From the IMG/VR virus record IMGVR_UViG_3300021388_000002: DNA of 64,000 bases; one strand, written 5' to 3'. A model generated the notes under the pieces. It was not told the DNA's origin and did not search any database. It saw only the letters and a list, made by a program, of their open reading frames with translations. Source of the DNA: a virus. Taxonomy: Duplodnaviria > Heunggongvirae > Uroviricota > Caudoviricetes. Below are positions 16,472 to 30,096 of the stretch, piece by piece (positions within the stretch are counted from its first letter, which is position 1; the number at the start of each line of letters is the position of its first letter). Made by a program: the position numbers and the translations under genes.

Positions 16472-17247
16472 GCTATCAGTGGGACCCGAATGCGGGCCTG
16501 GATCACGACGGCCGGCCGCTGGACGGGGAGCCGTACACGCACCCGTCCTGGGCGCAGGATGAGGGCCACTGCAGCGGCAGCGTGGCTGACCAGGCAGCCC
16601 AGGAGCTGGCCAGGGCCAGCCAGGTGCTGGAGGAGGCCCTGGCCAGCCACGCAGGCGTGCCGCTGGATCAGCTGCCGCTGACGGCAGCGCAGGAACAGGC
16701 CGTCCGCCAGGGCATCCAGCACGGGTACGCCATGGTCCTGCCAGACGGCCAGGCCATTACCCGGAACTGCGACTGCGGCCCGTGCACCGCCACCCACAGC
16801 CAGGCCAGGAAGGCAGCGGCAGCCGCGGCCAGGGCAGCAGAGCATGCGGGCGATCAGGCCGCGCAGCCTGTCCCGCGGATCGGGGACGCCGAGCGGGATG
16901 AGGTGATCGAGGCGCTGCGCGAGCACTTCGCGGCCGGGCGGCTGCGCCAGCACGAGGTGGATGAGCGGCTGGCCGCGGCGCTGGACGCGCTGACCCAGCC
17001 GGAGCTGGACGCGCTGCTGACCGACCTGCCCGCAGGCAGGCTGCCCGCACCTGCCCCGGCGGCGGCACCTGCCCCCGCACACCAGACCCGGGTGACGGTC
17101 ACCCGCTGCCGGCCCGCCACCTGGGACATCGTGGCCGCGGTGCTCCGGACCGCGCGGGTCATGATCATCGCGTACGTCATCCTGGGCTGCCTGTCCACCA
17201 CGCTGCCGCTGGTGAGCGCAGTCCTGCACACGCTGGTGGGCCCGTGA
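16468..17247 (+). CDS. DUF1707-like membrane protein
   Basis: ERDEVIEALREHFAAGRL...ELDALLTDL repeat; C-terminal TM helix. Confidence 0.5.
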   Translation: MSYQWDPNAGLDHDGRPLDGEPYTHPSWAQDEGHCSGSVADQAAQELARASQVLEEALASHAGVPLDQLPLTAAQEQAVRQGIQHGYAMVLPDGQAITRNCDCGPCTATHSQARKAAAAAARAAEHAGDQAAQPVPRIGDAERDEVIEALREHFAAGRLRQHEVDERLAAALDALTQPELDALLTDLPAGRLPAPAPAAAPAPAHQTRVTVTRCRPATWDIVAAVLRTARVMIIAYVILGCLSTTLPLVSAVLHTLVGP

Positions 17248-17783
17248 TGCCCGCCACGGTGACGTCGCTGGCCCCGCGGCGCCAGGCAGCGGTCACGGGC
17301 GTCATCACCGTGCTGGGCATCGACCCGGGCGACACGGTGGGCCTGTGCCTGGTCACCTGGCGCCGCCCGTGCGTGGTCGCTGAGTCGGTGCGGGCGTTCC
17401 AGTGCGACCGCGGCGCCGCGCCGGGCATGTGCGCCATGCTGCTGAACGCCCACCCGCGGCTGATCACCTGCGCGGGCATGGAGGCGTTCCGCTCCGGTAC
17501 CCGCTCGGCCCGGCTGAAAGGCACCCACGCCGACCACACCCGCGACCTGATCATCCTGCTGGCCGGGCTGCTGCGCCAGCACGGCGTGGTCCCCGTCACC
17601 CGGCCGGCCGCCACCGTCAAGACCTGGGCCACCGATGCCCGGCTGGACGCGGCCGGGCTGCTGGCGGCCACCGCCGGGCAGCGGCACGCCCGGGATGCGG
17701 CCCGGCACGCCGCCTACACAGCCTGCAGAGACGCCGGGCTGCCCGATCCGCTGTCCCGCCCCGGCCAGGCGGGACCGCGATGA
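17247..17783 (+). CDS. RuvC-like Holliday junction resolvase
   Basis: VLGIDPGDTVGLCLV; HARDAARHAAYTA C-terminal motif. Confidence 0.65.
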   Translation: MPATVTSLAPRRQAAVTGVITVLGIDPGDTVGLCLVTWRRPCVVAESVRAFQCDRGAAPGMCAMLLNAHPRLITCAGMEAFRSGTRSARLKGTHADHTRDLIILLAGLLRQHGVVPVTRPAATVKTWATDARLDAAGLLAATAGQRHARDAARHAAYTACRDAGLPDPLSRPGQAGPR

Positions 17784-18007
17784 CCACCAGAAGCGACGAG
17801 ATGGAGGAGTACGCCCATGCCCCGTATTCCAGTGCCGGAGCCGGATAGGCGGCAGCCCGGGACCCCCCACTGCCACGTGATCCAGGGTCCCGGACGCCAG
17901 CCTCGCGCTGCATCTTCCCCTTCCCGGCGGCAAGACGCGGGCACTCGCATGGTACCCCGCGGAACTGTGCGTTACCCGTACGCCTGGGCGTTTTACGGGG
18001 GCGTGGC

Positions 18008-21000
18008 GTGACCGGCGCCCCCGCGGTCTACGCCGCTGCCGTCGATGCCTACCTGGCGGCCGGCTGGACGTGCGTCATCCCGGTGCCGCCGGAGGCCAAG
18101 TTCCCGCCGCCCGCCGGGTTCACCGGGGCCTCTGGCCGGGACACCGGCCCGGCCGACGTCGCCCGCTGGGTGATGGCCACGCCCGGGGCCTCGATCGCGC
18201 TGCGCCTGCCGGACGGCGTCATCGGCATCGACGTCGATGAGTACGCCAAGGGCGAGGCCGTCAAGCACGGCGCGGCCACGCTCGCGGCGAAGGTGGCGGA
18301 CTGGGGAGAGCTGCCGCCGACCTACAGCTCCACCGCGCGCGGCCCGGGCCAGCCCAGCCGGATCATGCTCTACCGGGTCCCGGCCGGGGTGCGGTTCGCC
18401 TCGGTGCTCGGCCCGGACGTGGAGATCATCCAGCGGCACCACCGCTACGCCGTGGTCGCGCCGTCGCCGCACCACGGGGCCGGGGCGCCGTATGCCTGGT
18501 ACGGCCCGGACGGGGTGGCGCTGGAGCACAAGATCCCGCGGCCGGAGGATCTGGCCGAGCTGCCGCCCGCCTGGGTGACCGGGCTGGCTGAGGGCGCCTC
18601 AGCGGCCGGGCCGGCCTCAGCGGGCCGGGAGGCGGCCGAGGCCCTGCTGGCCGTGATCGCGGACCAGGCCGGGGAGAGCGCCACCACATGCGTGTCCATG
18701 GACCGGGCCCGGCTGGCCGCCATCGGCGCGTGCACCGGGGCCGAGCGGGGCTCGCGCCACGACGCGATGACCGAGCACACCTACGAGGTCATCATGCTGG
18801 CCGCCGAGGGCCACCCGGGCTGCACCGCGGTGCTGGGCGAGCTGGCCGGGCTGTGGAATTCGCTCACGGCAGGGGAGGGCCGTGAGCACGAGTTCTGGGA
18901 GATGCTGACCACCGCGGCGGGCAAGGCGGTGACCAAGCTGGGCGGCCGGGCCGAGCCAGCCGGGTGGGACCCGTGCCTGATGATGAACGCGGTGCCGTAC
19001 GCCGCGCCGACGCCGGATGCCGGGGACGGCATGGCCCCGGACCCGGTGGAGCCGGCCCGGGTGTGGTCGCCGTTCGAGGTCATCGGCACCGAGGTGTTCG
19101 ACCCGGGCGCGGACATGGACGGGCTGCTGGCCCGCGCCGTGCTGCACCGGACCCGGCCGCTGATCCGCTACGCGGCCGACGCCGGCACCTGGATCGCGCG
19201 CGGGCCCATCCACTGGGAGGCCCGCAGCGGCGACCTGGGCAAGTGGGCGGTGGACCTGCTGAGCTGGCTGATGCGGCCCGGTGACCCGGCTGCGGACAAG
19301 GGCACCCCGGCCGAGACCGACGCCCGGCGGCGGGCCCGGTTCACCACCAACGCCAGCGCGAACGCGATCGCGGGCAAGATCAGTGCCCAGGTCGCGGCCG
19401 GGTACCACCCATCCACGGTGGAGCTGGGCGAGCTGGACGGCGAGCACGAGATCCTGTGGGCGGGCGGGCAGCCGTACGACATCCGGCTGAGCGCCGCGCA
19501 CCCGGAGCTGTCCCGGGTCCTGGACCTGGGCACGCCGCACCTGCACAGCGCCGGCGTGGTGCCCGAGACGCGCGAGACCCCGCTGTGGGACGCGTTCGTG
19601 GCCGCGGTCTGGCCCCAGCCGGGGCTGCGCGCCTGGGCCCTGCGAGTGCTGAGCGTGGCGTTCACCGGGTACTCGGACAAGGCGCTGCCCATCCTGCTGG
19701 GCGAGTCCAACACCGGCAAGACCCAGCTCCTGGTCCTGCTCATGTCCGTGCTCGGCAGCTACGCGCACGTGGCCGACGCCCGGCTGCTGGCGCCCGCCGA
19801 CCGCAGCCACGCCTCCATCGTGTACGCGCTGAAGGGCCGCCGGCTGAGCTTCATCGATGAGGCGCCCCGGACCGGGCAGCTGGCCACCGAGCGGCTGAAG
19901 CAGATCACGGGCGGCGCGGAGCTGACCGGCAACCAGATGGGCAAGAACCCGATCACGTTCATGCCCACGCACACGCTGATCCTGACCGCCAACCCCGAGC
20001 ACGAGCCGGTCCTGACCGATGCGGCCATCCGGTCCCGGGTGCGGCTGATCCCGTGCGACGGGAACCAGGCCGAGGTGGCGGCGGCGCGGGCCGCGATCGG
20101 CGCGCTGAGCGGGCCGGCCTGGCGGCGCGAGGCTCCCGGGGTGCTGGCAAAGATGCTGTCAGAAGCAGCCCAGTGGCTCGAACAGCCGCAGACCGCCAGC
20201 AACGCTGAGGCACCCGCCGAGGCAGCCATGGCAGCCGAGGAGGTCCGGGCCTCACAGGACCACGTGCTGGGCTGGCTCGCAGAGGAATGCGAGTCTTCCG
20301 AGCGGGGCACCAAGGGCCGCGAGCTTTACGTGGCGTTCACGGAGAGTTGCCGGCGGATGAACGTCCACCCGTCTGCGATCCCGAGTGAAACCCGGTGGGG
20401 CAGACGCCTCACCGAGCTTGGCTACCCTTCACGCCACACCAATCAGGGCAACATCCGGCAGCTCCGAATCCGGCCTCCGGTGCCGTTCACACCTGGCAGC
20501 TACAGCCCAGCCGCGCCGCACGGCGCTGCAGTCGTCCTGCAGCCCGGTCCAGGTGAAGGGTTGAGGCCTGAAAGTGAAGGGTTGGTGCATGGTTCTGAGG
20601 CCAGCTCTCAACCCTTCACTGAGGGGGAAACCGCAGGTCAAACTATTCACCCAACTATTCACGGTGAAGGGTTGAATAGTACACAGCCTTATATAACACA
20701 TGCGCGCACGCACACGCGCACGCACATGAACGGAGGTGCAAACGACCCTTCACCCCCTTCAACCGTTCACCTGACCCCCCCGCAGCCGGAAACCCCCCTG
20801 ATGCCGGAAGCCCCGGAGGCCGGCGCAGCGTCACCACCGGAGCGTGACGAGCCCGAGCCGGCGCAGCCCGCGAAGAAGGCCCGCAAGGCGCCCGCGAAGA
20901 AGCCGGAGCGGGTCCGGCCGGCTCCGGAGCTGGAGGGCCCGGTGCACCCGCTGCCGGTGATCGTGGCGCGGAACCCGGCGGGCGGTGCGCCCATCGTGGC

Positions 21001-23863
21001 GCCGTGCACGGTGGCCGAGGCAGCTCAGCTGGCCGGGGGCTACCTGGACGCGCTGTGCGTGGACGTGGAGCACTCGGGCTTCCCCATCGCCCACGCGGAT
21101 TACCGGCTGCGCCTGGTCCAGCTCGGCGGCGAGCACGTGGCCGCCGTGTTCGACCCGTCCGATGCGGCGCAGGCGGCTGCGATCGCGGACCTGCTCGGCC
21201 GGGCCCGCAAGCTGCACGCGCACTCGGCCGCGGCCGACCTGGTGCCGCTGGCCCATGCCGGGCTCGGTGACGCCGATGAGATGTGGGCGAAGATGGAGGA
21301 CTCGGTGCTGGTGACCAAGCTGGGCGATCCCAGCCTGGCCGGGTCGGACGAGAACGAGCTGAAGCGGCTGGCCGCCGGGCTGCTCGGGGACTACGCCGTC
21401 AGTCCCGCCGCGGAGAAGGCCAAGAACGAGCTGTTCAAAGACGGCCGGTGGCTGATCGAGACCAAGGCCATGACCCCGCGGGAGAAGTCCGGGTGGGCCA
21501 TGGTGAAGCCCGGGTGCGAGACGTTCGCCCGGTACGCCGGGTCCGACGTGCTGGACCTGGCCGCCGTGATCCGCACGCTGCCCCGGCCGGATGAGGCCAT
21601 CCTGGAGCGCGAGCGCACCTTCCAGGCCATGTGCGCCCGGGTCGCGCACACCGGGTTCCGGCTGCGCCCTGATCACATCCGGGCCAAGATCGCCGAGTTC
21701 GCCGGGCTCCGGGACGCCGCCCAGCGCCGGGTGCACGAGCTGTGCCCGGACATCATCAACCCGTCCAGCTCCCGGGAGGTCCCGGCCGCGCTGGCCGCCA
21801 TGGGCGTGCCGCTCGGGCTGACCAGGGAAGGCAACCCCTCGGCGTCCAAGGAAAACCTGGAGCTGCTGGCGAAGCAGAAGGATTACCCCCACGCGGAGCT
21901 GCTGGCCCAGATCCTTCAGTACCGGCACTGCGTGACCACGCTCGGGCTGCTGCTGGAGCCACTGAACGTGCTGTGCGAGCGGGGCGACGGACGGATGCGC
22001 CCGGTGGTCTACACGATCAACGCGGACACCGGGCGGACCAGCTGCGTGCGGCCAAACGGTCAGCAGTTCTCCCGGCAGGGCGGCATCCGGGCCTGCGTCG
22101 GCGCCGATCCCGGCATGATCGGCATCAGCGCCGACTTCTCCGGCGTGGAGATCCGGGTCGGGGCCGCGCTGAGCGGCGACATGGACCTGCTCGCCGCCGA
22201 GCTGTCCACCCGGTGCCAGGCGTGCGGGCAGGACCCGTGCGACATGACCGCCTGCGGGAAGAACCAGAAGGGGCTGCACTGGATGGCGGCCCGGATGGCA
22301 TTCGGCCCGGACGCGACCAAGGAAGGCCGCTACAACTCCAAGCGGATCATCTTCTGCGTGCCCGAGGACGGCACCGAGATCCTGACCCGGCGCGGCTGGC
22401 TGGCTCACGATCAGGTCCGGGCAGGCGATGAGACGCTGGGCCGGAATCCCGGAACCGGCTTGCTGGAGTGGACCCCAGTTACGGGTGTCCAGCACTTTGG
22501 TGAGGCTGAGCTGGTGCGGATCGCGAATAAGGATTCCGGCTGGGAGGCCGTGGTCACGCCTGGGCATCGCTGGGCGACTAGCAAGCGCCGTGATGGGGGC
22601 AGCCGCGGCCGGTATTTCGCTGAGGGGATGACTGAGACTCAGGATCTCAGCTGCGAGCACTCGCTGATCCTGGGTGCGCTCGCGGCAACGCCGGAGCAGC
22701 TGCCCATCACCCCGGCTGAGGCTGCGCTGATCGCCTGGGCCTATACGGACGGGCACGTGTTCCAGTCCCCGCTGACCGGGCGCACAAGCCAGGGCCGGGA
22801 TGGACGGCGCCGTAAGCTGCAGGTCAGTATCGCCCAGGCCAAGCCCGCTGGCGTTCACGCGCTGGAGAAGGTCCTGGCGGACTGCGGCGCTGATTTCGCA
22901 CGAGACGACAAGCCGCTGGATGGCAAGGACAAGCGCACGATGCCATCCTCGGTCTGGCGGCTCCGGACTGAATACGCCCGGGAACTGTGGGGCCGGGCTG
23001 GCCTGCTTGCCGTTGCGGGCAAGAACCTGCCCGGATTCGCGCTGGAGCAGTTTGTCCTGCGGCTGGGCACGGAACAGCGCGGCGCGTTCTTTCAGGCCTG
23101 CATGGATGCCGAAGGTTACCGGGATAGCAGGACAGGAGCCCCGCGCATCTCCCAGAATGCGGGGCCAGTCCTGGACGCTATCAAGCTGGCTGCAACCCTG
23201 GAGGGCTACTACGTCCGGGAACACGTGACGCGGTTTGCGCTCGGGACTGCCCCGCATAGCGTGCTCGTGCTGTCGCGCCCGCGGGTGGGCGGGACCAGGC
23301 TGCGTAAGGAACCGGCTGGGTCAGCGCCGGTCTGGTGCGTGACAACAGGGCACGGCACCTGGCTGATGCGCCAGAACGGCCGGATCATGCTTACCGGCAA
23401 CTCCAAGATGTTCGGCGGCGGCCCGAAGTCCGGTGCCGCCCAGGTCGGCCTGCCGCTGGCGGCGGGCATCGCGGTGCACAACGCGTTCGAGCAGATTGCC
23501 CCGGGCTTCGCCGAGTGGGACCGGCAGATGCGGGCCTACCTGGAGGCAGGCAACCGCGGGTTCACTGCCTACTCGGGCCGGACCATCTGGCTGCCTCGCG
23601 GCCGGAGCCACGCGGCCGGGAACTACGCCATCCAGGGCACCGCCCGGGAGATCCTGGTGGACGGCGTGCTGAAGTGGGGTCAGACCCGCTGGGGCGCCTA
23701 TCCGCTGCTGCCGATCCACGATGAAGTTCTCACGTTCGTGCCCGTGGCCGAGGCCGCCGAGGCGCTGGAGACGCTGAAGGCCTGCATGGCCAACGAGCTG
23801 TACGGCGTGCCGATCGTGGCCGCCGCCGACGAGCCGTTCGAGTTCTGGCCGGACAGCTCATGA
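18008..23863 (+). CDS. giant replication fusion protein: primase-polymerase + P4/D5-type SF3 helicase + 3'-5' exonuclease + family-A DNA polymerase (intein-interrupted)
   Basis: IGIDVDEY prim-pol; LLGESNTGKTQ Walker A; CVDVEHSGF exo I; ADFSGVEIRV motif A; PIHDEVL motif C; continuous 1951-codon frame. Confidence 0.75.
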   Translation: MTGAPAVYAAAVDAYLAAGWTCVIPVPPEAKFPPPAGFTGASGRDTGPADVARWVMATPGASIALRLPDGVIGIDVDEYAKGEAVKHGAATLAAKVADWGELPPTYSSTARGPGQPSRIMLYRVPAGVRFASVLGPDVEIIQRHHRYAVVAPSPHHGAGAPYAWYGPDGVALEHKIPRPEDLAELPPAWVTGLAEGASAAGPASAGREAAEALLAVIADQAGESATTCVSMDRARLAAIGACTGAERGSRHDAMTEHTYEVIMLAAEGHPGCTAVLGELAGLWNSLTAGEGREHEFWEMLTTAAGKAVTKLGGRAEPAGWDPCLMMNAVPYAAPTPDAGDGMAPDPVEPARVWSPFEVIGTEVFDPGADMDGLLARAVLHRTRPLIRYAADAGTWIARGPIHWEARSGDLGKWAVDLLSWLMRPGDPAADKGTPAETDARRRARFTTNASANAIAGKISAQVAAGYHPSTVELGELDGEHEILWAGGQPYDIRLSAAHPELSRVLDLGTPHLHSAGVVPETRETPLWDAFVAAVWPQPGLRAWALRVLSVAFTGYSDKALPILLGESNTGKTQLLVLLMSVLGSYAHVADARLLAPADRSHASIVYALKGRRLSFIDEAPRTGQLATERLKQITGGAELTGNQMGKNPITFMPTHTLILTANPEHEPVLTDAAIRSRVRLIPCDGNQAEVAAARAAIGALSGPAWRREAPGVLAKMLSEAAQWLEQPQTASNAEAPAEAAMAAEEVRASQDHVLGWLAEECESSERGTKGRELYVAFTESCRRMNVHPSAIPSETRWGRRLTELGYPSRHTNQGNIRQLRIRPPVPFTPGSYSPAAPHGAAVVLQPGPGEGLRPESEGLVHGSEASSQPFTEGETAGQTIHPTIHGEGLNSTQPYITHARTHTRTHMNGGANDPSPPSTVHLTPPQPETPLMPEAPEAGAASPPERDEPEPAQPAKKARKAPAKKPERVRPAPELEGPVHPLPVIVARNPAGGAPIVAPCTVAEAAQLAGGYLDALCVDVEHSGFPIAHADYRLRLVQLGGEHVAAVFDPSDAAQAAAIADLLGRARKLHAHSAAADLVPLAHAGLGDADEMWAKMEDSVLVTKLGDPSLAGSDENELKRLAAGLLGDYAVSPAAEKAKNELFKDGRWLIETKAMTPREKSGWAMVKPGCETFARYAGSDVLDLAAVIRTLPRPDEAILERERTFQAMCARVAHTGFRLRPDHIRAKIAEFAGLRDAAQRRVHELCPDIINPSSSREVPAALAAMGVPLGLTREGNPSASKENLELLAKQKDYPHAELLAQILQYRHCVTTLGLLLEPLNVLCERGDGRMRPVVYTINADTGRTSCVRPNGQQFSRQGGIRACVGADPGMIGISADFSGVEIRVGAALSGDMDLLAAELSTRCQACGQDPCDMTACGKNQKGLHWMAARMAFGPDATKEGRYNSKRIIFCVPEDGTEILTRRGWLAHDQVRAGDETLGRNPGTGLLEWTPVTGVQHFGEAELVRIANKDSGWEAVVTPGHRWATSKRRDGGSRGRYFAEGMTETQDLSCEHSLILGALAATPEQLPITPAEAALIAWAYTDGHVFQSPLTGRTSQGRDGRRRKLQVSIAQAKPAGVHALEKVLADCGADFARDDKPLDGKDKRTMPSSVWRLRTEYARELWGRAGLLAVAGKNLPGFALEQFVLRLGTEQRGAFFQACMDAEGYRDSRTGAPRISQNAGPVLDAIKLAATLEGYYVREHVTRFALGTAPHSVLVLSRPRVGGTRLRKEPAGSAPVWCVTTGHGTWLMRQNGRIMLTGNSKMFGGGPKSGAAQVGLPLAAGIAVHNAFEQIAPGFAEWDRQMRAYLEAGNRGFTAYSGRTIWLPRGRSHAAGNYAIQGTAREILVDGVLKWGQTRWGAYPLLPIHDEVLTFVPVAEAAEALETLKACMANELYGVPIVAAADEPFEFWPDSS
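20540..20780. promoter_or_regulatory. candidate replication origin-like island inside the replication gene linker
   Basis: local GC drop; GTGAAGGGTTG x3 direct, CAACCCTTCAC inverted, CAACTATTCAC x2; 32-nt alternating Pu/Py tract 20697-20728; TTATATAAC. Confidence 0.35.
22355..23401 (+). mobile_element. intein (349 aa) inside polymerase domain, with homing endonuclease-like middle
   Basis: CVPEDGTEILTRRG start after ...KRIIF; ends ...IMLTGN followed by Ser; in frame. Confidence 0.65.
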
Positions 23864-24015
23864 CCGCCCCTGCCTGGCCCGCCGACTGGCACCGTGAGGC
23901 GCTGATCCGCCCGGACCGGTACCTGGCCATGCGCCGGCTGGTGTGCCTGATCTGCCGCAAGGATCACGTCACCACAGACTGCCCGCAACTTCACCGCAGG
24001 AAGGACACCACATGA
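23860..24015 (+). CDS. small hypothetical protein (51 aa)
   Basis: ATGA overlaps on both sides, high GC3. Confidence 0.35.
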   Translation: MTAPAWPADWHREALIRPDRYLAMRRLVCLICRKDHVTTDCPQLHRRKDTT

Positions 24016-24512
24016 CACTGAGCACCACACGGGCGATCACCGCGGGTAGCAGGCACCGCCGCTGGGGATTCCTGTCCGGTATCGATATCGGTGCGGACGG
24101 TGACCCGTACCTGGACCGGCTCCGGCTGGTGGAGACGCCCTGGCTCGCGCTGTACGTTCATCACATCCACCGGCCGGATAAGGACCCCGACCCGCATGAC
24201 CGTCCCTGGGCGTTCGCCTCGCTCGTCCTGTACGGCGGGTATGCCGAGCGTGTCTGGCCGGATAAGCACGACGCAAGCCAGAGCTTCAGCCGGGACAGGG
24301 CCCGGTTTTCTGCCGCCCGCACTCCCCGTGGCGCCGCGCATATCATCACCGCGATCAGCAGGCCCCTGTGGACGCTGGTCCTCACCGGGCCGCGCCGTGG
24401 CGAGTGGGGGTTCTGGCCGGGCGGGCGCTTCGTTCACTGGCAGGACTACACCGGCCCGGATAACGGCGTGACAGCTTGCCAGCGTGGCCGGCACGGCAGG
24501 AAGGGTGCATGA
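24012..24512 (+). CDS. hypothetical protein (His-rich motif HHIHRPDKDPDPHD)
   Basis: ORF track frame, start at MTLSTT. Confidence 0.45.
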   Translation: MTLSTTRAITAGSRHRRWGFLSGIDIGADGDPYLDRLRLVETPWLALYVHHIHRPDKDPDPHDRPWAFASLVLYGGYAERVWPDKHDASQSFSRDRARFSAARTPRGAAHIITAISRPLWTLVLTGPRRGEWGFWPGGRFVHWQDYTGPDNGVTACQRGRHGRKGA

Positions 24513-25192
24513 CGATCACACCCGTCCCGCGCCTGGAGCCTGCCGGGGAAGACGGCAGCCTGGCCCGCACGGCGGCGCTTGCTGATGCGGTCCAGGCCCT
24601 GGCCCGGTATGCGCTGCAGTTCGGCCGGATCGACCGGACCGCCTGCCTGCATCCTGATGGCGGCATGCGCGAGTCAGATACTGACCACACGGTGATGCTG
24701 AGGTGGATCGCCCCGGCGCTCGCCGACCGGTGCTGCCCGGACCTGCCCAGCGGCGATGTTGCCGCGTTCGCGCTGGTTCACGATGCGGTTGAGGTATTCG
24801 CTGGCGACACGCAGCCCCTGCGGATCGATGCAGACGGGCTGGCCGCCAAGAAGGCCCGCGAAGCTGCCGCGGCCGGCCGGTGGCGCGCCGAGTTCGGCGG
24901 CAGCCTGCCGTGGCTCCCGGCGATGATCGGCCGGTACGAGGCACAGCACGAGCCCGCGGCCCGGTTCGTCCGCGCCCTGGACAAGATCATGCCCAAGCTG
25001 GTGCATATCCTGAACGGCTGCGCGGACCTGATCGCATTCGGCGTCACCATGGACGAGCTGGACGGCTTGTTCTGCCGCCAGCGTGCCGACATCGCCACGT
25101 ACGCGAGTGAGTTCCGTGCCCTGATGGACCTGTACGACGAGACCACCGTGCGGGTTCTTGAGGCGCTGCGAGCCCGGGAGGGCGCCGCATGA
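24509..25192 (+). CDS. HD-domain phosphohydrolase
   Basis: ESDTDHTVML ... LVHDAVEVFAGD (H..HD..D). Confidence 0.65.
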   Translation: MTITPVPRLEPAGEDGSLARTAALADAVQALARYALQFGRIDRTACLHPDGGMRESDTDHTVMLRWIAPALADRCCPDLPSGDVAAFALVHDAVEVFAGDTQPLRIDADGLAAKKAREAAAAGRWRAEFGGSLPWLPAMIGRYEAQHEPAARFVRALDKIMPKLVHILNGCADLIAFGVTMDELDGLFCRQRADIATYASEFRALMDLYDETTVRVLEALRAREGAA

Positions 25193-25644
25193 TCACACCC
25201 GTCCCGCGCTGGACCCGGGCCGGCGAGGGCGACCCGCCGTCCGCCTGGACGCGTGCCCGGTTCCGGGAGCGCCGCATCCCGCCCGCCCGCCGCCAGCCGC
25301 GCTCCCAGGTGCCCCGGCCGGGGCTGTCCCCGATCGAGCAGAAGTTCTGGGACGCGCACCTGCGGCTGGCGCTGCCCGTGCTGTCCGGGCTGGTGGCCCA
25401 GCACCCGGCAGGCCGCTACCGGCTGGACTTCGCGCTGCCTGCGCACCGGATCGGCATTGAGCTGGACGGCCACGCCACCCATTCCAGTACCGCGGCGATC
25501 GCCCGGGACCGGCAGCGCCAGCGCGCCCTGGAAGCCCGCGGCTGGCACGTCATCCGGTTCGGCGGCGCCGAGGTGCACCGCGATGCGGACGGCTGCGTCC
25601 GCCAGGCCGCCGCGCTGATCCAGCGCCGGATCACCCGTCACTGA
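25189..25644 (+). CDS. DUF559 / Vsr-like endonuclease domain protein
   Basis: RLDFALP..IGIELDGHATHS...RDRQRQRALEARGWHVIRF. Confidence 0.65.
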   Translation: MITPVPRWTRAGEGDPPSAWTRARFRERRIPPARRQPRSQVPRPGLSPIEQKFWDAHLRLALPVLSGLVAQHPAGRYRLDFALPAHRIGIELDGHATHSSTAAIARDRQRQRALEARGWHVIRFGGAEVHRDADGCVRQAAALIQRRITRH

Positions 25645-25674
25645 CCGCAGACAGCAGCAAGCCCAGGAGGGATC

Positions 25675-25848
25675 ATGACCATGATCAGCCCTGAGACCGC
25701 CCCGCCCACCCTGGTCTACGCCGCCACCTGGGCGCAGGTCCCGGACAAGTGCGCGTGCCGGTACCGCGCCCGGTCCGGGGAGGACGGCTGGGAGCGCATC
25801 TCGGCCCACCCCGGCTGCCCCGCCGATCACGGGGAGGCAGCGCGATGA
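25675..25848 (+). CDS. small hypothetical protein (57 aa)
   Basis: CCCAGGAGGGATC ATG. Confidence 0.35.
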   Translation: MTMISPETAPPTLVYAATWAQVPDKCACRYRARSGEDGWERISAHPGCPADHGEAAR

Positions 25849-26093
25849 TGCCCACGCCCCCGAAGCTCACGAACGAGGAGATCCTGGCGCAGGCAGGCGT
25901 GACCCGGGAGAAGCTGGGCGAGTCGGTGCGCCGGGAATGGGCCGCCTGGGCGCGTGAGCAGCCTGACGTGGCTGAGCACCCGCACTGGCTCATGCCCTGG
26001 GCCGAGCTGGCCGAGCGGGACCGCGAGGTGGACCGCCGGATCGGTGAGCGGCTGTTCTGCGCGGGCTGGCGGATGCGGGTGTGGCTGCCATGA
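25845..26093 (+). CDS. hypothetical protein
   Basis: ATGA coupling. Confidence 0.4.
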   Translation: MMPTPPKLTNEEILAQAGVTREKLGESVRREWAAWAREQPDVAEHPHWLMPWAELAERDREVDRRIGERLFCAGWRMRVWLP

Positions 26094-26425
26094 GCATGCA
26101 CTACCTGGTGCCCGGGACGCCCGTGCTGGACCGCTCCGCGGTCACGCCCCGGGTGATGGCCGCGTGCGCCGACTGCGGGCAGGTCCGTCCGATCATCGCC
26201 CGGCGCCTGTGCCGCACCTGGTGCTACGACCGCAACCGCCGGGCCGGCACGCTGGGACGGTACCCGACCGGGCTGGCCGTCCGGCTGGAGGAGTACGCCG
26301 GGCTGCGCGCGGCTCACTGGGGCGTCCTGGAGATCTGCGCGGCGCTGGGCATCAGCCTGCGCACCGCCCGGCGGTACGACGCCCGGCTCCGGGAATCAGG
26401 TACACTGGCATTATGGCGAACGTAG
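26090..26425 (+). CDS. hypothetical HTH-like protein
   Basis: C-terminal GISLRTARRYDARL. Confidence 0.4.
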   Translation: MSMHYLVPGTPVLDRSAVTPRVMAACADCGQVRPIIARRLCRTWCYDRNRRAGTLGRYPTGLAVRLEEYAGLRAAHWGVLEICAALGISLRTARRYDARLRESGTLALWRT

Positions 26426-26658
26426 CACTTCCCAAGGGAGAGATCGTGGTGGACGCCCGCGGCCGGACATCACTGGCCCGGGTCCGCGACCAGGAGTTCA
26501 CCCGGTACCTGGTGGACGAGCACGCGGACGGCACGCTCGTGCTCACCCCGGCGATCGTTGTGACTCCGGCCGAGCTGGACCGGCTGCGGGCGGGGGAGCC
26601 GCTGGCTGGGGGCATGCTGACCGAGCGCACGCTGGCTGAGCTGAAGGACCCGGAATGA
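26413..26658 (+). CDS. AbrB/SpoVT-like swapped-hairpin domain protein
   Basis: VVDARGRTSLARVRD. Confidence 0.45.
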   Translation: MANVALPKGEIVVDARGRTSLARVRDQEFTRYLVDEHADGTLVLTPAIVVTPAELDRLRAGEPLAGGMLTERTLAELKDPE

Positions 26659-26789
26659 CCTGGCTGCAGTGGCTGGAGGGCATGCCCTGGTGGGTCACCG
26701 CGGTGCCCTGGGTCATCCTGGCGCTGCTCATCGCGTTCTGCTGGGACGGCTGGTCCTGGTGGCATTTCCACGGGGAGGACCCGGGATGA
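26655..26789 (+). CDS. small single-TM protein (44 aa), Trp-rich
   Basis: ATGA coupling, high GC3. Confidence 0.35.
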   Translation: MTWLQWLEGMPWWVTAVPWVILALLIAFCWDGWSWWHFHGEDPG

Positions 26790-27334
26790 GAACCCAGAGC
26801 GCCATCCCCCGCAACTACGATGACTTCCCGGTCAGCGAGGCGGTGCTGAGCGATGACCTCGTGTACCGGTACACGCTGGACCGCCGCTGGGCCTGGGATG
26901 GCCCGGTCATGGTGTGGATCGGGCTGAACCCGAGCACGGCTGATCATCAGGCCGACGACCCGACCATCCGGCGGATGTGCGGGTTTGCCCGCCGGGAGGG
27001 CTGCCGCGGGATCTGCGTGCTCAACCTGTACGCGCTGCGCGCCACCGACCCGCGTGAGCTGGCCCGGCACCCGGACCCGGTGGGGCCGGAGAACGATGAC
27101 TGGCTAGCCGGGGTGGGCATCGCCGCGGACGGCCCGGTGGTCGCCGCGTGGGGCGCGCACCCGTTCGCAGCCCGGCGCGAGCAGGCCGTGACCCAGCTGC
27201 TGGCGCTGGCTGGCGTGACTCAGCTGATGTGCCTGGGCATGACCGGCCAGGGCTACCCGAATCACCCGCTGTATCTGCGCGCCGATGCGCCGCTGGTGCC
27301 CTGGGAGCCAGCCGAAGCGGACCGGTGGCCATGA
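26786..27334 (+). CDS. DUF1643 family protein
   Basis: WIGLNPSTADHQADDPTIRRMCGFAR...CVLNLYALRATDP. Confidence 0.6.
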   Translation: MRTQSAIPRNYDDFPVSEAVLSDDLVYRYTLDRRWAWDGPVMVWIGLNPSTADHQADDPTIRRMCGFARREGCRGICVLNLYALRATDPRELARHPDPVGPENDDWLAGVGIAADGPVVAAWGAHPFAARREQAVTQLLALAGVTQLMCLGMTGQGYPNHPLYLRADAPLVPWEPAEADRWP

Positions 27335-27492
27335 GCGGCGTACTGGCATGGCTGCGGGCCTGGCGGGCGTCCCGGCCAGCTCCGCAGGAACGGTGCATCT
27401 GCTGGTATGACGGGGACGGCGGCCCATACGGCCTGCCGCACTGGGTGATCTCGCCCAGCTGCCCGCAGCACGGGCGGGAGGTGCTGCGATGA
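27331..27492 (+). CDS. small hypothetical protein
   Basis: ATGA coupling. Confidence 0.3.
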   Translation: MSGVLAWLRAWRASRPAPQERCICWYDGDGGPYGLPHWVISPSCPQHGREVLR

Positions 27493-27698
27493 GCAGGCCG
27501 CTGCAGTTCCGGTACCTGACCCCGGCGGAACTAGCCGAGCAGGCTAAACCGCGATGCCCGTCCCGGCCCTCGCCGCGCTCACAGGCCCAGTGCGAGTTCC
27601 CGGAGGGCCACACCGGCACGGTGGCGGACGGGGGCGGGATCTTTCATGCCGGCCGGACCCGGGCCGGCTACTGGAGATTCTGGGAGACCCGGTCGTGA
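27489..27698 (+). CDS. small hypothetical protein
   Basis: ORF track. Confidence 0.3.
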   Translation: MSRPLQFRYLTPAELAEQAKPRCPSRPSPRSQAQCEFPEGHTGTVADGGGIFHAGRTRAGYWRFWETRS

Positions 27699-28195
27699 GC
27701 GGCCTGCTGCCCCCGCCCCCGCCGGGCTGCCCGGAGCTGCGCTGTACCGCCTACTGGTACACCTGGAATGAGATCGGGCCGCCCGTGGACATGGAGTTCC
27801 TGCGTGAGCTGGGCCTGCGCGCTTACCGGATCGCCCGCTGGTACGGCCTGGTGCCCGCCCAGGTGCCCGAAGGACCGTACTGGGTTCACACCTGGCCGGA
27901 GTGGGCCTGGGACGCCGCGCTGGCCGACATGGTGCACATGTACGGTGCGCCGTCCGGTGAGCAGGCCGCGCTTGATCTTGCCCAGGCCGCGTCCGCCCCC
28001 CTGAGCGCGGATTACCCGGTGCGGTGCGCCGTGGCGACCGCCGCCAGCCTGGATGAGCCCGGCCATGGCTACTGGGAGAAGGGCGGCTACGGCCACCTGG
28101 TGCACGGCGCGGGCTGGCCGCTGCGGACCGGGGACCTCGTGCACGATGACGAGCCCACTCCCGGCTGGCCGCCGATGGACAGCGACGATATGTAG
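27695..28195 (+). CDS. hypothetical protein (GTG start)
   Basis: GTGA coupling; start uncertain. Confidence 0.4.
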   Translation: MSGLLPPPPPGCPELRCTAYWYTWNEIGPPVDMEFLRELGLRAYRIARWYGLVPAQVPEGPYWVHTWPEWAWDAALADMVHMYGAPSGEQAALDLAQAASAPLSADYPVRCAVATAASLDEPGHGYWEKGGYGHLVHGAGWPLRTGDLVHDDEPTPGWPPMDSDDM

Positions 28196-28274
28196 CCCTA
28201 CGCTGGGCCGTACGTGCCCGCGGCCGGTTCCGGAGCCGGGTTCCCGATAAGCCACCGCCATTGGGGAGCCGTGC

Positions 28275-29204
28275 ATGACCGGAGCCGACGTCCCGGTGAT
28301 GTTCCGGGCCGGCCGCGGGCCTTCCGGCGCTGAGCCGGGCCAGCCCGATGTGCCCGCTGAGGCCGCGGGTGCCGCCACCTACCTGGCGGACATCAGCGAA
28401 TTCCAGCCTGACCTGGCCGATGCCGCTTACCTGAACTGGTCGAAGGCCATTGTCATCCGGGCCGCCTACGGCGACGCGCACGACGACGGCGCCTGGTACG
28501 GCGGCGCGCGCCGGGCTGACCTGCATGCCGGTGGCGTGAGGTTCCTGGGCATCTACCAGTACATCGTGGCGGGCCAGGACGCTGCCGCGCAGGCCCGTGC
28601 GCTGACCCGGCTGGTCGGCAGGCTGGAGGCCGGCGAGGTCATCATCGGGGACCTGGAGGAGGGCGCGGGGGATCAGGCCGGCCGGCGCGCCGCCTGGGAA
28701 GCCGTGATCACCGATGCGTACGGGGACCGGCCCTGGATCTATTCCGGGCTCGATTTCGCCGCCAGCCATGGCCTGGCCCCGGTGGACTGGGTGGCGGCCT
28801 ACCAGGCCAGCGAGCCGTCCGTGCCGCACCGGCTGTGGCAGTTCACCGATGGCTACGGCGTGCCCGGGGTGGGCCGGGCTGACTGCTCGGTGTTCCGCGG
28901 CAGTATCGCGGAGCTGGCCGCGCTCGCCCACGGCGGCACGCCCGTTCCCGCGCCAGCTCCCGCCCCCGCAACCGGATGGATGGCGACCGTCATGCCGAAC
29001 CCGCCCGTACTCGCCAGTGGCGCCAGCGGCGAGGACGTCCGCTCGGTGCAGGGCCTGCTGACCGCCCGTGGCTACGGGGTGGCCATAGACGGCAGTTACG
29101 GGCCCACGACCCGGGCCGCGGTGACCGCGCTCCAGCATGCCCGGGGCCTGGCCGCAGACGGCGTGGTGGGTCCCGACACCTGGGGCAAGCTGCTGAACCA
29201 GTAG
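28275..29204 (+). CDS. endolysin: GH25 muramidase + peptidoglycan-binding domain
   Basis: YLADISEFQ...GIYQY (GH25-like); C-terminal GEDVRSVQGLLTARGYGVAIDGSYGPTTRAAVTALQ (PG_binding_1). Confidence 0.8.
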   Translation: MTGADVPVMFRAGRGPSGAEPGQPDVPAEAAGAATYLADISEFQPDLADAAYLNWSKAIVIRAAYGDAHDDGAWYGGARRADLHAGGVRFLGIYQYIVAGQDAAAQARALTRLVGRLEAGEVIIGDLEEGAGDQAGRRAAWEAVITDAYGDRPWIYSGLDFAASHGLAPVDWVAAYQASEPSVPHRLWQFTDGYGVPGVGRADCSVFRGSIAELAALAHGGTPVPAPAPAPATGWMATVMPNPPVLASGASGEDVRSVQGLLTARGYGVAIDGSYGPTTRAAVTALQHARGLAADGVVGPDTWGKLLNQ

Positions 29205-29223
29205 CGCGCGCCGCTGCCCCGGG

Positions 29224-29239
29224 TACCGGGCGCCCGGAA
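29224..29239. repeat. degenerate copy of 16-bp palindrome (TACCGGGCGCCCGGAA) after endolysin gene
   Basis: 15/16 match. Confidence 0.4.
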
Positions 29240-29277
29240 CTTCTGGCCGCCGCATACCCCCCACGCGGGAAATACCC

Positions 29278-30048
29278 GTGCTGCGGGCGATTACGCAGCG
29301 CTTATCGACTTTGCGTAGTTATCCGGCTACGGTCGGTGCTATGCAGCGTTCCGCACAGCATGGCAGGGCCTACGGAACCGGGCTGGCCCTGCCGCCGGAC
29401 CTGGTCCTGCTCAGTGCCCTGTGGGGCGTGGTGCTGGACATCGGGGCCGTGCTCGACTCAGCCAGCCCGGACGTGGCCAAGGTCAGCGCCATCCGGTCCT
29501 ATATGCGGGACCAGCTGCCCGCGGCCCGGCCGCAGGTCCGCCGGGGGGACACCGCTCAGGACGTAGCGGCCATGATCGGCTCCCGGCTGATGTCCGGGAT
29601 GCTCGCCACCGACCTGTTCACCGCGCTGACCGGCCAGCCCGTGCATGTCGCGGTCCGCGAGCAGGAGGGCCGGCCGGCCACCGATGACGAGCGCGCCGAG
29701 CTGCGCTGGCCGGCGGGCACAGAGCTGTATGAGCGTTCCGGCCTGCTCATGGCCGGGTCCATCATCTGCGCCCGGGTCACGCTGCGGATCGTGTCCGACC
29801 CGGCCTGGCTGCCCGCGGGCGCGCTCGGCAAGATCCGCTCGGGCCAGCCGTGCGGCGGGGTGCTCGCCCCGTACGGGCTGCACCGGCCGTTCCGTGAGGT
29901 GAAGGTGTCCGCGGGCACCGGGCCGGCCGATCCCGGGCCGGGCGTGCTCGCGCGGGCCGTGCTGGCCCTGAACACTTCCCGGATCGGGATCGCCACCGAG
30001 GACGTGGGCGATGACATCTGCTACCGGCTGGCGGCGTATGGGCGCTAG
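29278..30048 (+). CDS. hypothetical protein (alternative start at 29341)
   Basis: ORF track. Confidence 0.4.
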   Translation: MLRAITQRLSTLRSYPATVGAMQRSAQHGRAYGTGLALPPDLVLLSALWGVVLDIGAVLDSASPDVAKVSAIRSYMRDQLPAARPQVRRGDTAQDVAAMIGSRLMSGMLATDLFTALTGQPVHVAVREQEGRPATDDERAELRWPAGTELYERSGLLMAGSIICARVTLRIVSDPAWLPAGALGKIRSGQPCGGVLAPYGLHRPFREVKVSAGTGPADPGPGVLARAVLALNTSRIGIATEDVGDDICYRLAAYGR

Positions 30049-30096
30049 CGGGGCCGCCGTGCGTATCCTGGGCCATGATGAGAGGGAGGGTGCCTG

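What the first reader, a model, noticed from the sequence alone, without database searches (positions are those of the whole stretch)
20540..20780. Origin-like island embedded in-frame in the linker of the giant replication gene
About 240 bp of markedly lower GC sit inside the 1951-codon ORF, between the helicase and exonuclease/polymerase domains. The island contains:
- the 11-mer GTGAAGGGTTG three times in direct orientation;
- its complement CAACCCTTCAC once (an AACCGTTCAC partial match also follows);
- CAACTATTCAC twice;
- an AT-rich TTATATAAC;
- a 32-nt perfectly alternating pyrimidine-purine tract (CACATGCGCGCACGCACACGCGCACGCACATG, Z-DNA-prone).

The reading frame is preserved, so the repeats are translated as GEGL and (T-H/R)n linker peptides. 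Iterons plus an AT-rich element inside a replication-initiator gene are a classic ori arrangement in phages and plasmids.
Basis: partly seen in the sequence, partly recalled or inferred. Interest (0 to 1): 0.7.

Follow-up and report, generated by a model that had tools for sequence, protein, structure and literature searches.

The report
Replication origin translated as protein linker
A short stretch inside a giant phage replication gene carries about ten copies of a protein-binding DNA word around an easily melted centre, and it is most likely the element's replication origin, read through by the ribosome as the flexible linker between the helicase and polymerase halves of one protein.

Summary
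Ten copies of GTGAAGGGTT (up to 2 mismatches, both orientations) lie in 20423-20770. They flank an AT-rich patch and a 33-nt purine/pyrimidine-alternating tract. This is the least stable 100 bp of duplex in the 64-kb window.

I fetched 62 related loci from actinobacterial genomes and viral contigs. All 60 fused relatives keep one open frame across a low-GC linker. In 48 of 57 linkers a locus-specific 10-mer (family consensus NTGNNGGGTT) occurs 8-14 times, against 3 of 676 control windows. The layout is conserved: > > > < … > > [AT or RY tract] < <. The word sits in all three codon phases and both orientations, so the DNA is conserved, not the peptide.

Iteron bases 1, 4 and 5 covary best with residues 812, 810 and 815, out of 1851 columns of the polyprotein. 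These residues lie in the wing of a predicted winged-helix domain just upstream, which resembles RFX and the P4 origin-binding domain. Two unfused relatives carry the same array in the non-coding spacer just after the primase-helicase stop codon.

Best reading: a SaPI/P4-type origin for a self-loading helicase, swallowed into the ORF by gene fusion. No replication experiment exists.

The parts
18008..23863 (+). Single ORF of 1951 aa: Prim-Pol, SF3 (D5/P4-type) helicase, winged helix, linker, 3'-5' exonuclease, family A polymerase
   Evidence: ORF list and translation. Pfam hits: Prim-Pol aa 14-187, DUF5906 aa 563-666, DNA_pol_A. At least 120 full-length homologues, with PF01612 exonuclease called in several.
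19694..20005 (+). Core of the SF3 helicase NTPase (DUF5906, aa 563-666)
   Evidence: Pfam. A profile of this region hits the ASFV primase-helicase C962R in the PDB at E = 3e-8.
20258..20470 (+). Predicted winged-helix origin-binding domain (aa ~751-821). Recognition helix aa 794-803; wing hairpin aa 808-821.
   Evidence: AlphaFold2 model, pLDDT 85. Foldseek: RFX1-DNA 1dp7 (prob 1.0), RFX5, P4 origin-binding domain 1ka8 (prob 0.84), ASFV PrimPol C-terminus.
20435..20452 (+). Codons of wing residues H810, N812 and N815, the proposed specificity determinants
   Evidence: These are the best covarying columns among 1851 non-linker columns, for iteron base 4 (810), base 1 (812) and base 5 (815).
20422..20432 (-). 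Outlying iteron-like copy (GTGAAGGGTAG, 1 mismatch) inside the wing-coding DNA. It may be coincidental.
   Evidence: It overlaps the conserved peptide GYPS.
20553..20563 (+). Iteron 1, GTGAAGGGTTG (exact)
20574..20584 (+). Iteron 2, GTGAAGGGTTG (exact), 21 bp after iteron 1
   Evidence: Family spacing peaks at 9-11 and 21 bp.
20585..20594 (+). Degenerate iteron 3 (GTGCATGGTT, 2 mismatches), 11 bp after iteron 2. It matches the third '>' of the family layout.
20609..20619 (-). Iteron 4, inverted (CAACCCTTCAC on the + strand, exact)
20640..20662 (-). Two AT-richer variant copies (AACTATTCAC twice, 12 bp apart, 2 mismatches each), inverted orientation
20664..20674 (+). Iteron 5, GTGAAGGGTTG (exact), on the left edge of the melt-prone centre
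20675..20697 (.). AT-rich patch (AATAGTACACAGCCTTATATAAC), the proposed start of duplex opening
   Evidence: 20656-20696 is the second least stable 40-bp stretch of the window, and 20602-20701 is the least stable 100 bp. Relatives have an AT-rich patch at the same place.
20696..20728 (.). 33-nt strictly alternating purine/pyrimidine tract (ACACATGCGCGCACGCACACGCGCACGCACATG)
   Evidence: Longest in the window, next 17 nt. 33 of 57 linkers have a run of at least 15 nt, against 12 of 676 controls. Codon choice shows a DNA-level constraint.
20743..20753 (-). Iteron 6, inverted (CGACCCTTCAC, 1 mismatch), on the right of the centre
20760..20770 (-). Iteron 7, inverted (CAACCGTTCAC, 1 mismatch), 17 bp after iteron 6
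20771..20935 (+). Rest of the linker: Pro-rich then Lys/Arg-rich peptide (…AKKARKAPAKKPERVRP…), GC back to 0.72-0.78. Not part of the repeat array.
20936..23863 (+). Exonuclease and family A polymerase half. It carries an intein-like insertion of 349 aa at about 22355-23401.

Best explanation
The island is the element's iteron-type replication origin. It is of the kind served by self-loading primase-helicases such as phage P4 alpha and the staphylococcal SaPI Rep proteins. Here it is embedded in frame in the linker of a one-polypeptide replisome.

**Proposed mechanism**
1. The winged-helix domain at the end of the primase-helicase half (aa ~751-821) reads the 10-bp word GTGAAGGGTT, mainly through its wing hairpin. 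Residue 810 would read base 4, residue 812 base 1 and residue 815 base 5.
2. Copies spaced one or two helical turns apart on each side of the centre, pointing towards each other, assemble helicase hexamers on both flanks.
3. The duplex opens at the AT-rich patch and the alternating purine/pyrimidine tract between them.
4. The Prim-Pol domain primes, and the exonuclease/PolA half of the same protein extends.

**Proposed history.** The origin originally lay in the spacer just 3' of a primase-helicase gene. Loss of the stop codon fused that gene to the downstream polymerase gene. Since then the origin has also had to stay free of stop codons.

**Shown:** the repeat array, its conservation at the DNA level, its layout, the covariation with the wing, the fold, and the unfused state.
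**Inferred:** binding, melting, hexamer loading and initiation.
For: 1. **Clustering.** All 7 hits at up to 1 mismatch in 64 kb lie in 350 bp, with 0.53 expected. At up to 2 mismatches there are 10 hits in 400 bp, an 88-fold enrichment.
2. **Family-wide arrays.** 48 of 57 linkers hold at least 8 copies of a locus-specific 10-mer, against 3 of 676 control windows. The word occurs 0-1 times in most ~12-kb flanks. Linker 7-mers such as AACCCGT and ACCCTCC are enriched 40-67 fold.
3. **Conserved layout.** The pattern > > > < … > > [AT or RY] < < holds even where the word differs, for example GTGACCAGTT or CGGACAGTT.
4. **DNA-level, not peptide-level.** Copies occur in both orientations and all three codon phases. 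In (T/A-H/R)n stretches, 87 of 87 Thr/Ala codons end in a purine and 24 of 24 Arg codons are CGC.
5. **Covariation with the wing.**
   - Base 4: A goes with H810 in 24 of 25 loci; G or C goes with K/R in 13 of 14.
   - Base 5: A goes with N815 in 12 of 17; C goes with K815 in 18 of 22.
   - Base 1: G goes with R/K/N812 in 22 of 24; C with E in 8 of 10; A with M/T in 5 of 5.
   - The swaps recur on backbones that are 78-86% identical (L003/L029/L032 and L008/L010/L042).
6. **Fold.** The model is a winged helix nearest to RFX, which contacts DNA through its recognition helix and its wing, and to the P4 origin-binding domain (PMC2777425).
7. **Melt-prone centre.** The island is the least stable 100 bp of duplex in the window.
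8. **Unfused relatives.** L017 and L018 carry the same kind of array in the non-coding spacer right after the primase-helicase stop codon. L018 uses the family word GTGACGGGTT.
9. **Match to SaPI origins.** The description of SaPI origins fits point by point: a C-terminal winged helix, 6-12 iterons just downstream of rep, an AT-rich centre, and at least 2 iterons on each side pointing in opposite directions (PMC9371898).
Against: - There is no experimental or replication-profile evidence. GC skew over the 64-kb piece is uninformative, and the whole 164.6-kb contig was not available.
- The covariation is read from 39 loci that share ancestry, so the counts are not independent events. One out-of-sample locus (L015) breaks the base-4 rule.
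- 9 of 57 linkers have fewer than 8 copies.
- The centre is GC-rich alternating DNA rather than a classical AT-rich unwinding element. Its role is a guess.
- The inverted copies also give a strongly structured transcript (z = -6), so an RNA-level role is not excluded.
- The same winged helix could bind these sites for autoregulation rather than initiation.
Confidence: 0.77

Rival explanations
1. The array is a binding-site cluster for the polyprotein's own winged helix, but it serves another cis function: autoregulation by a transcriptional roadblock or operator, copy-number 'handcuffing', or tethering. The real origin would lie elsewhere.
For: The covariation shows who binds, not what binding does. 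Iteron initiators commonly autoregulate; this is general plasmid knowledge, not tested here. Only 64 kb of a 164.6-kb contig was examined.
Against: - There is no second cluster in the window or in the ~12-kb flanks of relatives.
- The opposed iterons around the least stable duplex in the window are the layout of an opening site.
- In unfused relatives the array sits where SaPI origins sit, and next to the region that pRN1 needs for replication (PMC4234260).
Confidence: 0.12
2. The inverted repeats act as mRNA or single-stranded DNA secondary structure, for example to pause ribosomes between the two halves of the protein. DNA-protein recognition would be irrelevant.
For: The RNA fold of 20540-20780 has an MFE of -102 kcal/mol against -73.6 ± 4.7 for shuffles, z = -6. 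Concerted change of all copies in a lineage preserves pairing.
Against: - A structure does not need one identical word for every stem.
- It does not need unbalanced numbers of direct and inverted copies, such as 7 to 1 or 10 to 4.
- It does not need helical-turn spacing of 9-11 and 21 bp.
- It does not explain chemically sensible covariation with three wing residues.
- Unfused relatives keep the array outside any ORF.
- There is no Rfam match.
Confidence: 0.05
3. The repeats are peptide repeats of a disordered linker (GEGL, TIH, TH/TR), selected at the protein level.
For: The frame is open, and related linkers show similar peptide words such as GQTIH, EGL and THTHTRT.
Against: - One DNA word gives at least 4 different peptides within a single locus.
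- Peptide words change whenever the DNA word changes.
- Codon third positions are fixed against the genome's codon bias.
- The array also exists untranslated in L017 and L018.
Confidence: 0.02
4. The island is a remnant of an inserted mobile element, or a chance low-complexity patch in a variable linker.
For: The GC dip and inverted repeats superficially resemble a small insertion.
Against: The same layout lies at the same place in about 60 loci spanning 45-75% protein identity. Shuffle and control-window statistics exclude chance.
Confidence: 0.01

Closest known systems
SaPI (staphylococcal pathogenicity island) pri-rep-ori modules, especially the fused PriRep5
   Same: - A primase plus a self-loading helicase with a C-terminal winged helix that reads short iterons.
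- 6-12 iterons next to the 3' end of the helicase coding region.
- A central easily melted region with at least two iterons on each side pointing in opposite directions (PMC9371898).

The window has 7-10 copies in this layout.
   Different: - SaPI origins are non-coding, while this one is translated in frame.
- The word is 10 bp rather than 5-6 bp.
- The primase is of the Prim-Pol (AEP) type.
- A 3'-5' exonuclease and PolA are fused downstream.
- The centre is often an alternating purine/pyrimidine tract instead of plain AT-rich DNA.
- There is no detectable sequence homology to SaPI Rep; this was not tested beyond Pfam and PDB searches.
Phage P4 alpha protein and its origin-binding domain (PDB 1KA8)
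   Same: A primase-SF3 helicase-winged helix order in one polypeptide, with origin recognition by the C-terminal winged helix (PMC4889955). The model matches 1ka8 with prob 0.84 and TM about 0.5.
   Different: - The P4 primase is DnaG-type.
- From memory and unverified here: P4 ori and crr are separate non-coding regions with the octamer TGTTCACC.
- P4 alpha has no fused polymerase.
- Sequence similarity of the domain is not detectable by profile search.
Origins inside initiator genes: lambda ori in gene O; N15 initiation within repA
   Same: The origin lies inside the coding sequence of the replication protein that uses it (PMC3985674; PMC2847241). Lambda has four iterons next to an AT-rich region.
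   Different: - Lambda O has no helicase or primase and recruits host DnaB through P.
- N15 RepA is reported as a DnaG-primase plus SF2-helicase fusion (PMC4889955).
- Neither is homologous to this protein.
- Here the origin fills an inter-domain linker created by fusion of helicase and polymerase.
Archaeal plasmid pRN1 ORF904 (Prim-Pol, SF3 helicase, winged helix)
   Same: The same domain order as the N-terminal half. A winged helix aligned to RFX and P4 alpha (PMC2777425). 166 bp directly downstream of orf904 are essential for replication (PMC4234260 abstract). This matches the position of the array in unfused L017 and L018.
   Different: No iterons could be recognised in pRN1 (PMC2777425). 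The region is non-coding, and there is no fused polymerase of family A.
Primase-helicase-polymerase fusions of phages (e.g. Pas55 of Actinoplanes phage phiAsp2)
   Same: An SF3 helicase, a primase and PolA in one polypeptide have been noted before (PMC4889955).
   Different: That report calls the primase DnaG-type and says nothing about an origin in the linker. No deposited phage is close to this protein; the best hits are 24-32% identical.

Membership tests
Iteron origin of a self-loading primase-helicase (P4 alpha / SaPI Rep type) | Primase domain fused to, or next to, an SF3/D5-type hexameric helicase | tested here: met
   Pfam Prim-Pol (E = 6e-20) and DUF5906. The profile hits the ASFV primase-helicase C962R.
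Iteron origin of a self-loading primase-helicase (P4 alpha / SaPI Rep type) | [quoted passage not shown] | tested here: met
   Predicted structure with pLDDT 85. Foldseek hits 1dp7, 8zjr and 1ka8. This is a prediction, not a solved structure.
Iteron origin of a self-loading primase-helicase (P4 alpha / SaPI Rep type) | Array of about 6-12 short repeats adjacent to the 3' end of the helicase coding region | tested here: met
   The window has 7 copies at up to 1 mismatch and 10 at up to 2. 48 of 57 relatives have 8-14 copies.
Iteron origin of a self-loading primase-helicase (P4 alpha / SaPI Rep type) | Easily melted centre with at least 2 repeats on each side pointing in opposite directions | tested here: met
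   Layout map. Least stable 100 bp of the window.
Iteron origin of a self-loading primase-helicase (P4 alpha / SaPI Rep type) | The winged helix binds the repeats specifically | not testable with these tools
   Indirect support only: residues 810, 812 and 815 are the top covarying columns of 1851. 7 of 8 out-of-sample predictions fit.
Iteron origin of a self-loading primase-helicase (P4 alpha / SaPI Rep type) | DNA synthesis starts at the site, and the fragment supports replication with the protein in trans | not testable with these tools
   No experiment or read-depth data. GC skew over 64 kb is uninformative.
Iteron origin of a self-loading primase-helicase (P4 alpha / SaPI Rep type) | The origin lies in non-coding DNA downstream of the gene | tested here: not met
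   Here and in 60 fused loci it is read in frame with 0 stop codons. The feature is met only in unfused L017 and L018. This is the point of difference.
Lambda-type origin inside the initiator gene | Iterons and an unwinding region inside the coding sequence of the initiator | tested here: met
Lambda-type origin inside the initiator gene | An initiator of the O family that recruits the host helicase through a P-like loader | tested here: not met
   No O-like domain. The protein carries its own SF3 helicase.
Z-DNA-forming alternating purine/pyrimidine tract | Uninterrupted (CA/CG/TG)n alternation of at least about 12 bp | tested here: met
   33 nt at 20696-20728. Runs of up to 47 nt in relatives.
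Z-DNA-forming alternating purine/pyrimidine tract | Adoption of the left-handed form, or a role in opening, under physiological supercoiling | not testable with these tools
   No test possible. In several relatives a plain AT-rich patch takes its place, which argues for a generic opening role.

The most novel reading that the evidence does not exclude
An origin of replication has been captured as a protein linker. In an ancestor the iteron origin lay in the spacer 3' of a primase-helicase-winged-helix gene, as in L017 and L018. Loss of the stop codon fused that gene to the downstream exonuclease-PolA gene. The result is a one-polypeptide replisome whose ~150-residue linker is dual-coded DNA.

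The initiator's specificity residues (wing positions 810, 812 and 815) lie only about 100 bp from their binding sites. Specificity pairs are therefore inherited together, and they have diversified into at least nine readable 'wing-to-base' classes that should define incompatibility groups. In these 70% GC elements an alternating purine/pyrimidine tract does the job of the usual AT-rich unwinding element.
Probability: 0.5. Interest if true: 0.85.

Novelty: new variant of a known kind. Interest (0 to 1): 0.77.

Why it matters
- **It gives a concrete candidate origin.** The family is large, uncultured and previously unannotated: actinobacterial prophage-like elements of about 40 kb and phage-like contigs of 140-210 kb. 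The origin and its binder can be read straight from sequence.
- **It is a clean natural case of dual coding.** A cis-acting DNA machine dictates the sequence of a translated linker. This explains odd conserved 'peptide motifs' such as GEGL, QVNPS and THTHTRT that would otherwise be mistaken for protein features.
- **It yields a testable amino-acid-to-base code.** The three-position covariation for a wing-reading winged helix comes with natural specificity swaps that could be reproduced by point mutation.
- **It could supply tools.** Compact origin-plus-replisome cassettes of this kind could provide replicons of graded specificity for high-GC Actinobacteria.

Tried and rejected
- **DNA search of deposited phages.** Megablast with 2.5 kb around the island found no match.
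- **Protein searches of phages and plasmids.** Only distant primase-helicases at 24-32% identity turned up, and none had the fusion. Cultured phage records therefore could not be used.
- **Profile search of the PDB with the helicase plus winged helix.** Only the NTPase core matched (ASFV C962R). The winged helix was invisible to sequence search and needed a structure prediction.
- **One fixed pattern across loci.** A single A[AC]C[CT]NNCAC pattern missed about 20 loci whose word differs. I replaced it with a de novo best-word search per locus.
- **Codon usage inside RY-defined tracts.** This first test was circular. I replaced it with peptide-defined stretches.
- **Rfam and promoter scans.** Rfam gave nothing of note in 20000-21200. 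The promoter scan found none, and the 'terminators' are just the alternating tract folding on itself.
- **GC and AT skew of the window.** There is no interpretable turning point at the island.
- **Literature.** Searches found no paper describing this family's origin.
- **Rejected readings.** Peptide repeat, chance, mobile-element scar. RNA structure is rejected only as the sole explanation.
Full report
**1. What is in the window**

The window is about 70% GC. ORF 18008-23863 (+) encodes 1951 aa.
- Pfam finds Prim-Pol (aa 14-187), the DUF5906 core of P4/D5-type SF3 helicases (aa 563-666) and a family A polymerase.
- Neighbouring genes include an SNF2 helicase, an HD hydrolase, an exonuclease and a GH25 endolysin with a peptidoglycan-binding domain.
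- The identical protein sits on a 164.6-kb JGI contig. This looks like the early/replication region of a large actinobacterial phage-like element.

Between nt 20540 and 20780, GC drops to 0.565-0.57 against 0.72-0.78 on either side.

- GTGAAGGGTTG at up to 1 mismatch has 7 hits in 64 kb, all within 20422-20770. Shuffles give 0.53 expected.
- At up to 2 mismatches there are 10 hits in 400 bp, against 18 singletons in the other 63.6 kb.
- The alternating tract is 33 nt (20696-20728), and the next longest in the window is 17 nt.
- By nearest-neighbour energies the island is the least stable 100 bp of duplex in the whole window, 4.4 sd from the mean. The stretch 20656-20696 is the second least stable 40 bp.

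**2. The fusion is real and widespread**

A protein search found at least 120 homologues with the same architecture, usually 1550-1620 aa. They include proteins from Nocardioides, Micromonospora, Kribbella, Prauserella and Mycobacterium.

I fetched 62 loci: 18 from genomes and 44 from IMG/VR viral contigs. Most of the viral contigs are 37-60 kb. Four of them are 139-210 kb, three of which (L019-L021) are the closest relatives.
- In all 57 sequences with both flanking anchors (56 loci plus the window) the frame runs through without a stop. The linker is 340-650 nt long, and its GC is always below that of the flanks.
- Three more loci with a different polymerase module are also fused.

**3. The DNA is conserved, not the peptide**

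- Linker 7-mers AACCCGT, ACCCGTC, CCCGTCA and ACCCTCC are 40-67 fold enriched over flanks. ACACACA and CACACAC are enriched 31-35 fold.
- A de novo search in each locus finds a 10-mer present 8-14 times in 48 of 57 linkers. It occurs in both orientations and several codon phases, and 0-1 times in most ~12-kb flanks.
- Of 676 control windows of the same length from the same loci, only 3 reach 8 copies.
- The words form one family, N-T-G-N-N-G-G-G-T-T. Lineage-specific versions are GTGAA (window, L032), CTGAA, ATGGA, GTGGA, CTGGA, GTGAC, CTGAC, ATGAC and GTGCA. A few are more distant, such as GTGACCAGTT, CGGACAGTT and CAGGCGGGTT.
- In the window the inverted word is read as QPF(T), (D)PSP and T(I/V)H in the three phases, and the forward word as GEGL. 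The forward word contains TGA, which explains why it uses only one phase.
- The odd peptide words seen in relatives' linkers are translations of the DNA word in its two orientations.

The layout is the same everywhere:
- two or three forward copies, then one inverted copy;
- a gap of about 40 nt, then one or two forward copies;
- an AT-rich patch and/or an alternating tract;
- two inverted copies.

Adjacent same-orientation copies are 9-11 or 21 bp apart, which is one or two helical turns.

Alternating runs of at least 15 nt occur in 33 of 57 linkers, up to 47 nt, against 12 of 676 controls. Where the run is absent, an AT-rich patch takes its place.

In stretches defined only by their peptide, (T/A-H/R)n:
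- 87 of 87 Thr/Ala codons end in a purine, against a background of 36-42%;
- 24 of 24 Arg codons are CGC.

The peptides themselves vary (AHARTHA, YTHARTHA, HMYAHAHAH and others). Strict alternation of the DNA is therefore what is kept.

**4. Who binds**

I aligned 39 polyproteins with assigned iteron classes and scored every one of the 1851 non-linker columns against the variable iteron bases.
- The best column for base 1 is residue 812.
- The best two columns for bases 4-5 are residues 815 and 810.

The contingencies are clean.

| Iteron base | Base | Wing residue | Fit |
|---|---|---|---|
| 4 | A | H810 | 24/25 |
| 4 | G or C | K/R810 | 13/14 |
| 5 | A | N815 | 12/17 |
| 5 | C | K815 | 18/22 |
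| 1 | G | R/K/N812 | 22/24 |
| 1 | C | E812 | 8/10 |
| 1 | A | M/T812 | 5/5 |

These pairings agree with the usual contact preferences (Arg/Lys with G, Asn with A, Glu with C). That is general knowledge and was not tested here.

The swaps recur on backbones that are 78-86% identical, so shared ancestry alone does not explain them.

| Locus | Residues 810/812/815 | Iteron class |
|---|---|---|
| L003 | HRK | GTGAC |
| L029 | QMK | ATGAC |
| L032 | HKN | GTGAA |
| L008 | HEK | CTGAC |
| L010 | HKK | GTGAC |
| L042 | RKN | GTGGA |

Three loci left out of the fit gave 7 of 8 correct predictions. L015 fails at base 4.

An AlphaFold2 model of aa 739-826 (38 sequences, pLDDT 85) is a winged helix. 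Its recognition helix is aa 794-803 and its wing hairpin is aa 808-821, so the three residues sit on the wing. Foldseek ranks the following:
- the RFX1 DNA complex first (prob 1.0);
- then RFX5;
- then the phage P4 origin-binding domain 1ka8 (prob 0.84);
- the C-terminus of ASFV PrimPol also matches.

RFX contacts DNA through both its recognition helix and its wing, and it has been aligned with P4 alpha and pRN1 ORF904 before (PMC2777425). In P4 alpha and other D5-family helicases the C-terminal winged helix is the origin binder (PMC4889955).

**5. The unfused state**

Two distant relatives have a stand-alone primase-helicase.
- **L017** (Pseudonocardia MAG, 38% identity). The ORF stops 9 codons after the winged helix. 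The next ~300 nt are non-coding. They hold three direct CGGTGGCGGAT copies 11 bp apart, an inverted copy, an AT/purine-rich centre, and four or five inverted ATCCGCCAC copies before the next gene.
- **L018** (31% identity). The ORF stops at 6831. The 240-nt spacer before an SSB-like gene holds GTGACGGGTT and its inverse, an AT-rich stretch, then AACCCGTCAC twice. This is the family word and the family layout in ordinary intergenic DNA.

The simplest history is that an origin lying just 3' of the primase-helicase gene was read through when that gene fused to the polymerase gene. SaPI origins lie in that position (PMC9371898), and pRN1 has an essential 166 bp there (PMC4234260).

**6. Mechanism proposed, and how much is shown**

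*Shown:* the array, its DNA-level conservation, its layout around the least stable duplex, covariation with a wing of a predicted winged helix attached to an SF3 helicase, and the non-coding homologue.

*Inferred:* the winged helix binds the copies. Opposed sets on either side of the centre load helicase hexamers. The AT patch and the alternating tract open. Prim-Pol primes and the fused exonuclease/PolA extends.

The description of SaPI origins fits almost word for word: 6-12 iterons just downstream of rep, an AT-rich centre, at least two iterons on each side pointing in opposite directions, and a self-loading helicase with a C-terminal winged helix. Placing the specificity residues (nt 20435-20452) about 100 bp from their sites would keep matched pairs together during recombination. 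That is my inference.

**7. Rivals**

- **Another role for the same binding sites** (autoregulation, handcuffing) cannot be excluded without mapping. No second cluster exists nearby, and the layout is that of an opening site.
- **RNA structure** is real as a by-product (z = -6). It does not explain identical words, unbalanced orientations, helical phasing, the covariation with the protein, or the untranslated homologues.
- **Peptide repeats and chance** are excluded by sections 1-3.

**8. Comparison and novelty**

Already known:
- origins inside initiator genes, such as lambda O and N15 repA;
- iteron origins of self-loading winged-helix helicases (P4, SaPI);
- primase-helicase-PolA fusions, such as Pas55 of phiAsp2.

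I found no description of an origin embedded in frame in the helicase-polymerase linker, of its conservation across a large actinobacterial family, of the alternating tract at its centre, or of the wing-to-base covariation. No deposited phage is close; the best is 24-32% identical.

I class it as a new variant of a known kind. Function as an origin is about 0.77 likely. That it is a cis-acting binding array for the protein's own winged helix is more likely still.

Noticed in passing
window 22355-23401 (aa ~1450-1798 of the polyprotein): An intein-like insertion of 349 aa splits the PolA domain. It begins CVPEDGTEIL… and ends …RIMLTGN|S. It is absent from P0004 and P0006. Other relatives carry different insertions, some with an HNH_3 domain (P0076, P0082). 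Pfam did not call a Hint domain.
   Followed up: partly
window 8791-11652 (+), GC dip at 9001-10000 (0.609): A 953-aa ORF matches a phage exonuclease family (phrog_1674, two stretches) and a LAGLIDADG_3 domain at aa 261-303. It is probably a second intein or homing-endonuclease insertion. The second-longest alternating tract of the window (17 nt, 9496-9512) lies inside it.
   Followed up: partly
L008 and L009 (contig CAZDAO010000001.1, 101,680 bp, uncultured Nocardioides): The same locus occurs twice on one contig, about 46.9 kb apart (16820-29611 and 63768-76559). This suggests a concatemeric or tandem assembly of a ~47-kb element.
   Followed up: no
L019 (IMG/VR contig of 210 kb) and proteins P0021, P0022: In these close relatives the ORF ends about 240 aa after the linker (1204-1232 aa, no PolA domain called). 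The polymerase part is therefore split off, interrupted or replaced there, while the iteron array is intact.
   Followed up: no
L007, L015, L023: A sub-lineage has the same helicase, winged helix and in-frame iterons (8, 9 and 17 copies) but a different, shorter downstream module (~690-740 aa) that my exonuclease anchor did not match. L023 has an unusually long array (17 copies) and an extra Pro/Ala-rich repeat before it.
   Followed up: partly
window 20866-20902: A direct repeat GCCCGCGAAGAAG occurs twice, encoding a Lys/Arg-rich patch (AKKARKAPAKKPER) at the end of the linker. A basic patch lies at the same place in most relatives, just before the exonuclease domain. Its role is unknown.
   Followed up: no
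window 39163-39255 (-): ARAGORN calls a 93-nt tRNA-Gly(GCC) inside the high-GC3 ORF 39042-40451 (AAA_25 ATPase). The length and location make it a likely false positive.
   Followed up: no
window 7290-7970 and 30050-31500: Gene orientation switches here. Genes diverge at about 7.3-8.0 kb and converge at about 30-31.5 kb, so the replication gene lies in a ~22-kb rightward block. AT skew changes sign near 25 kb.
   Followed up: no
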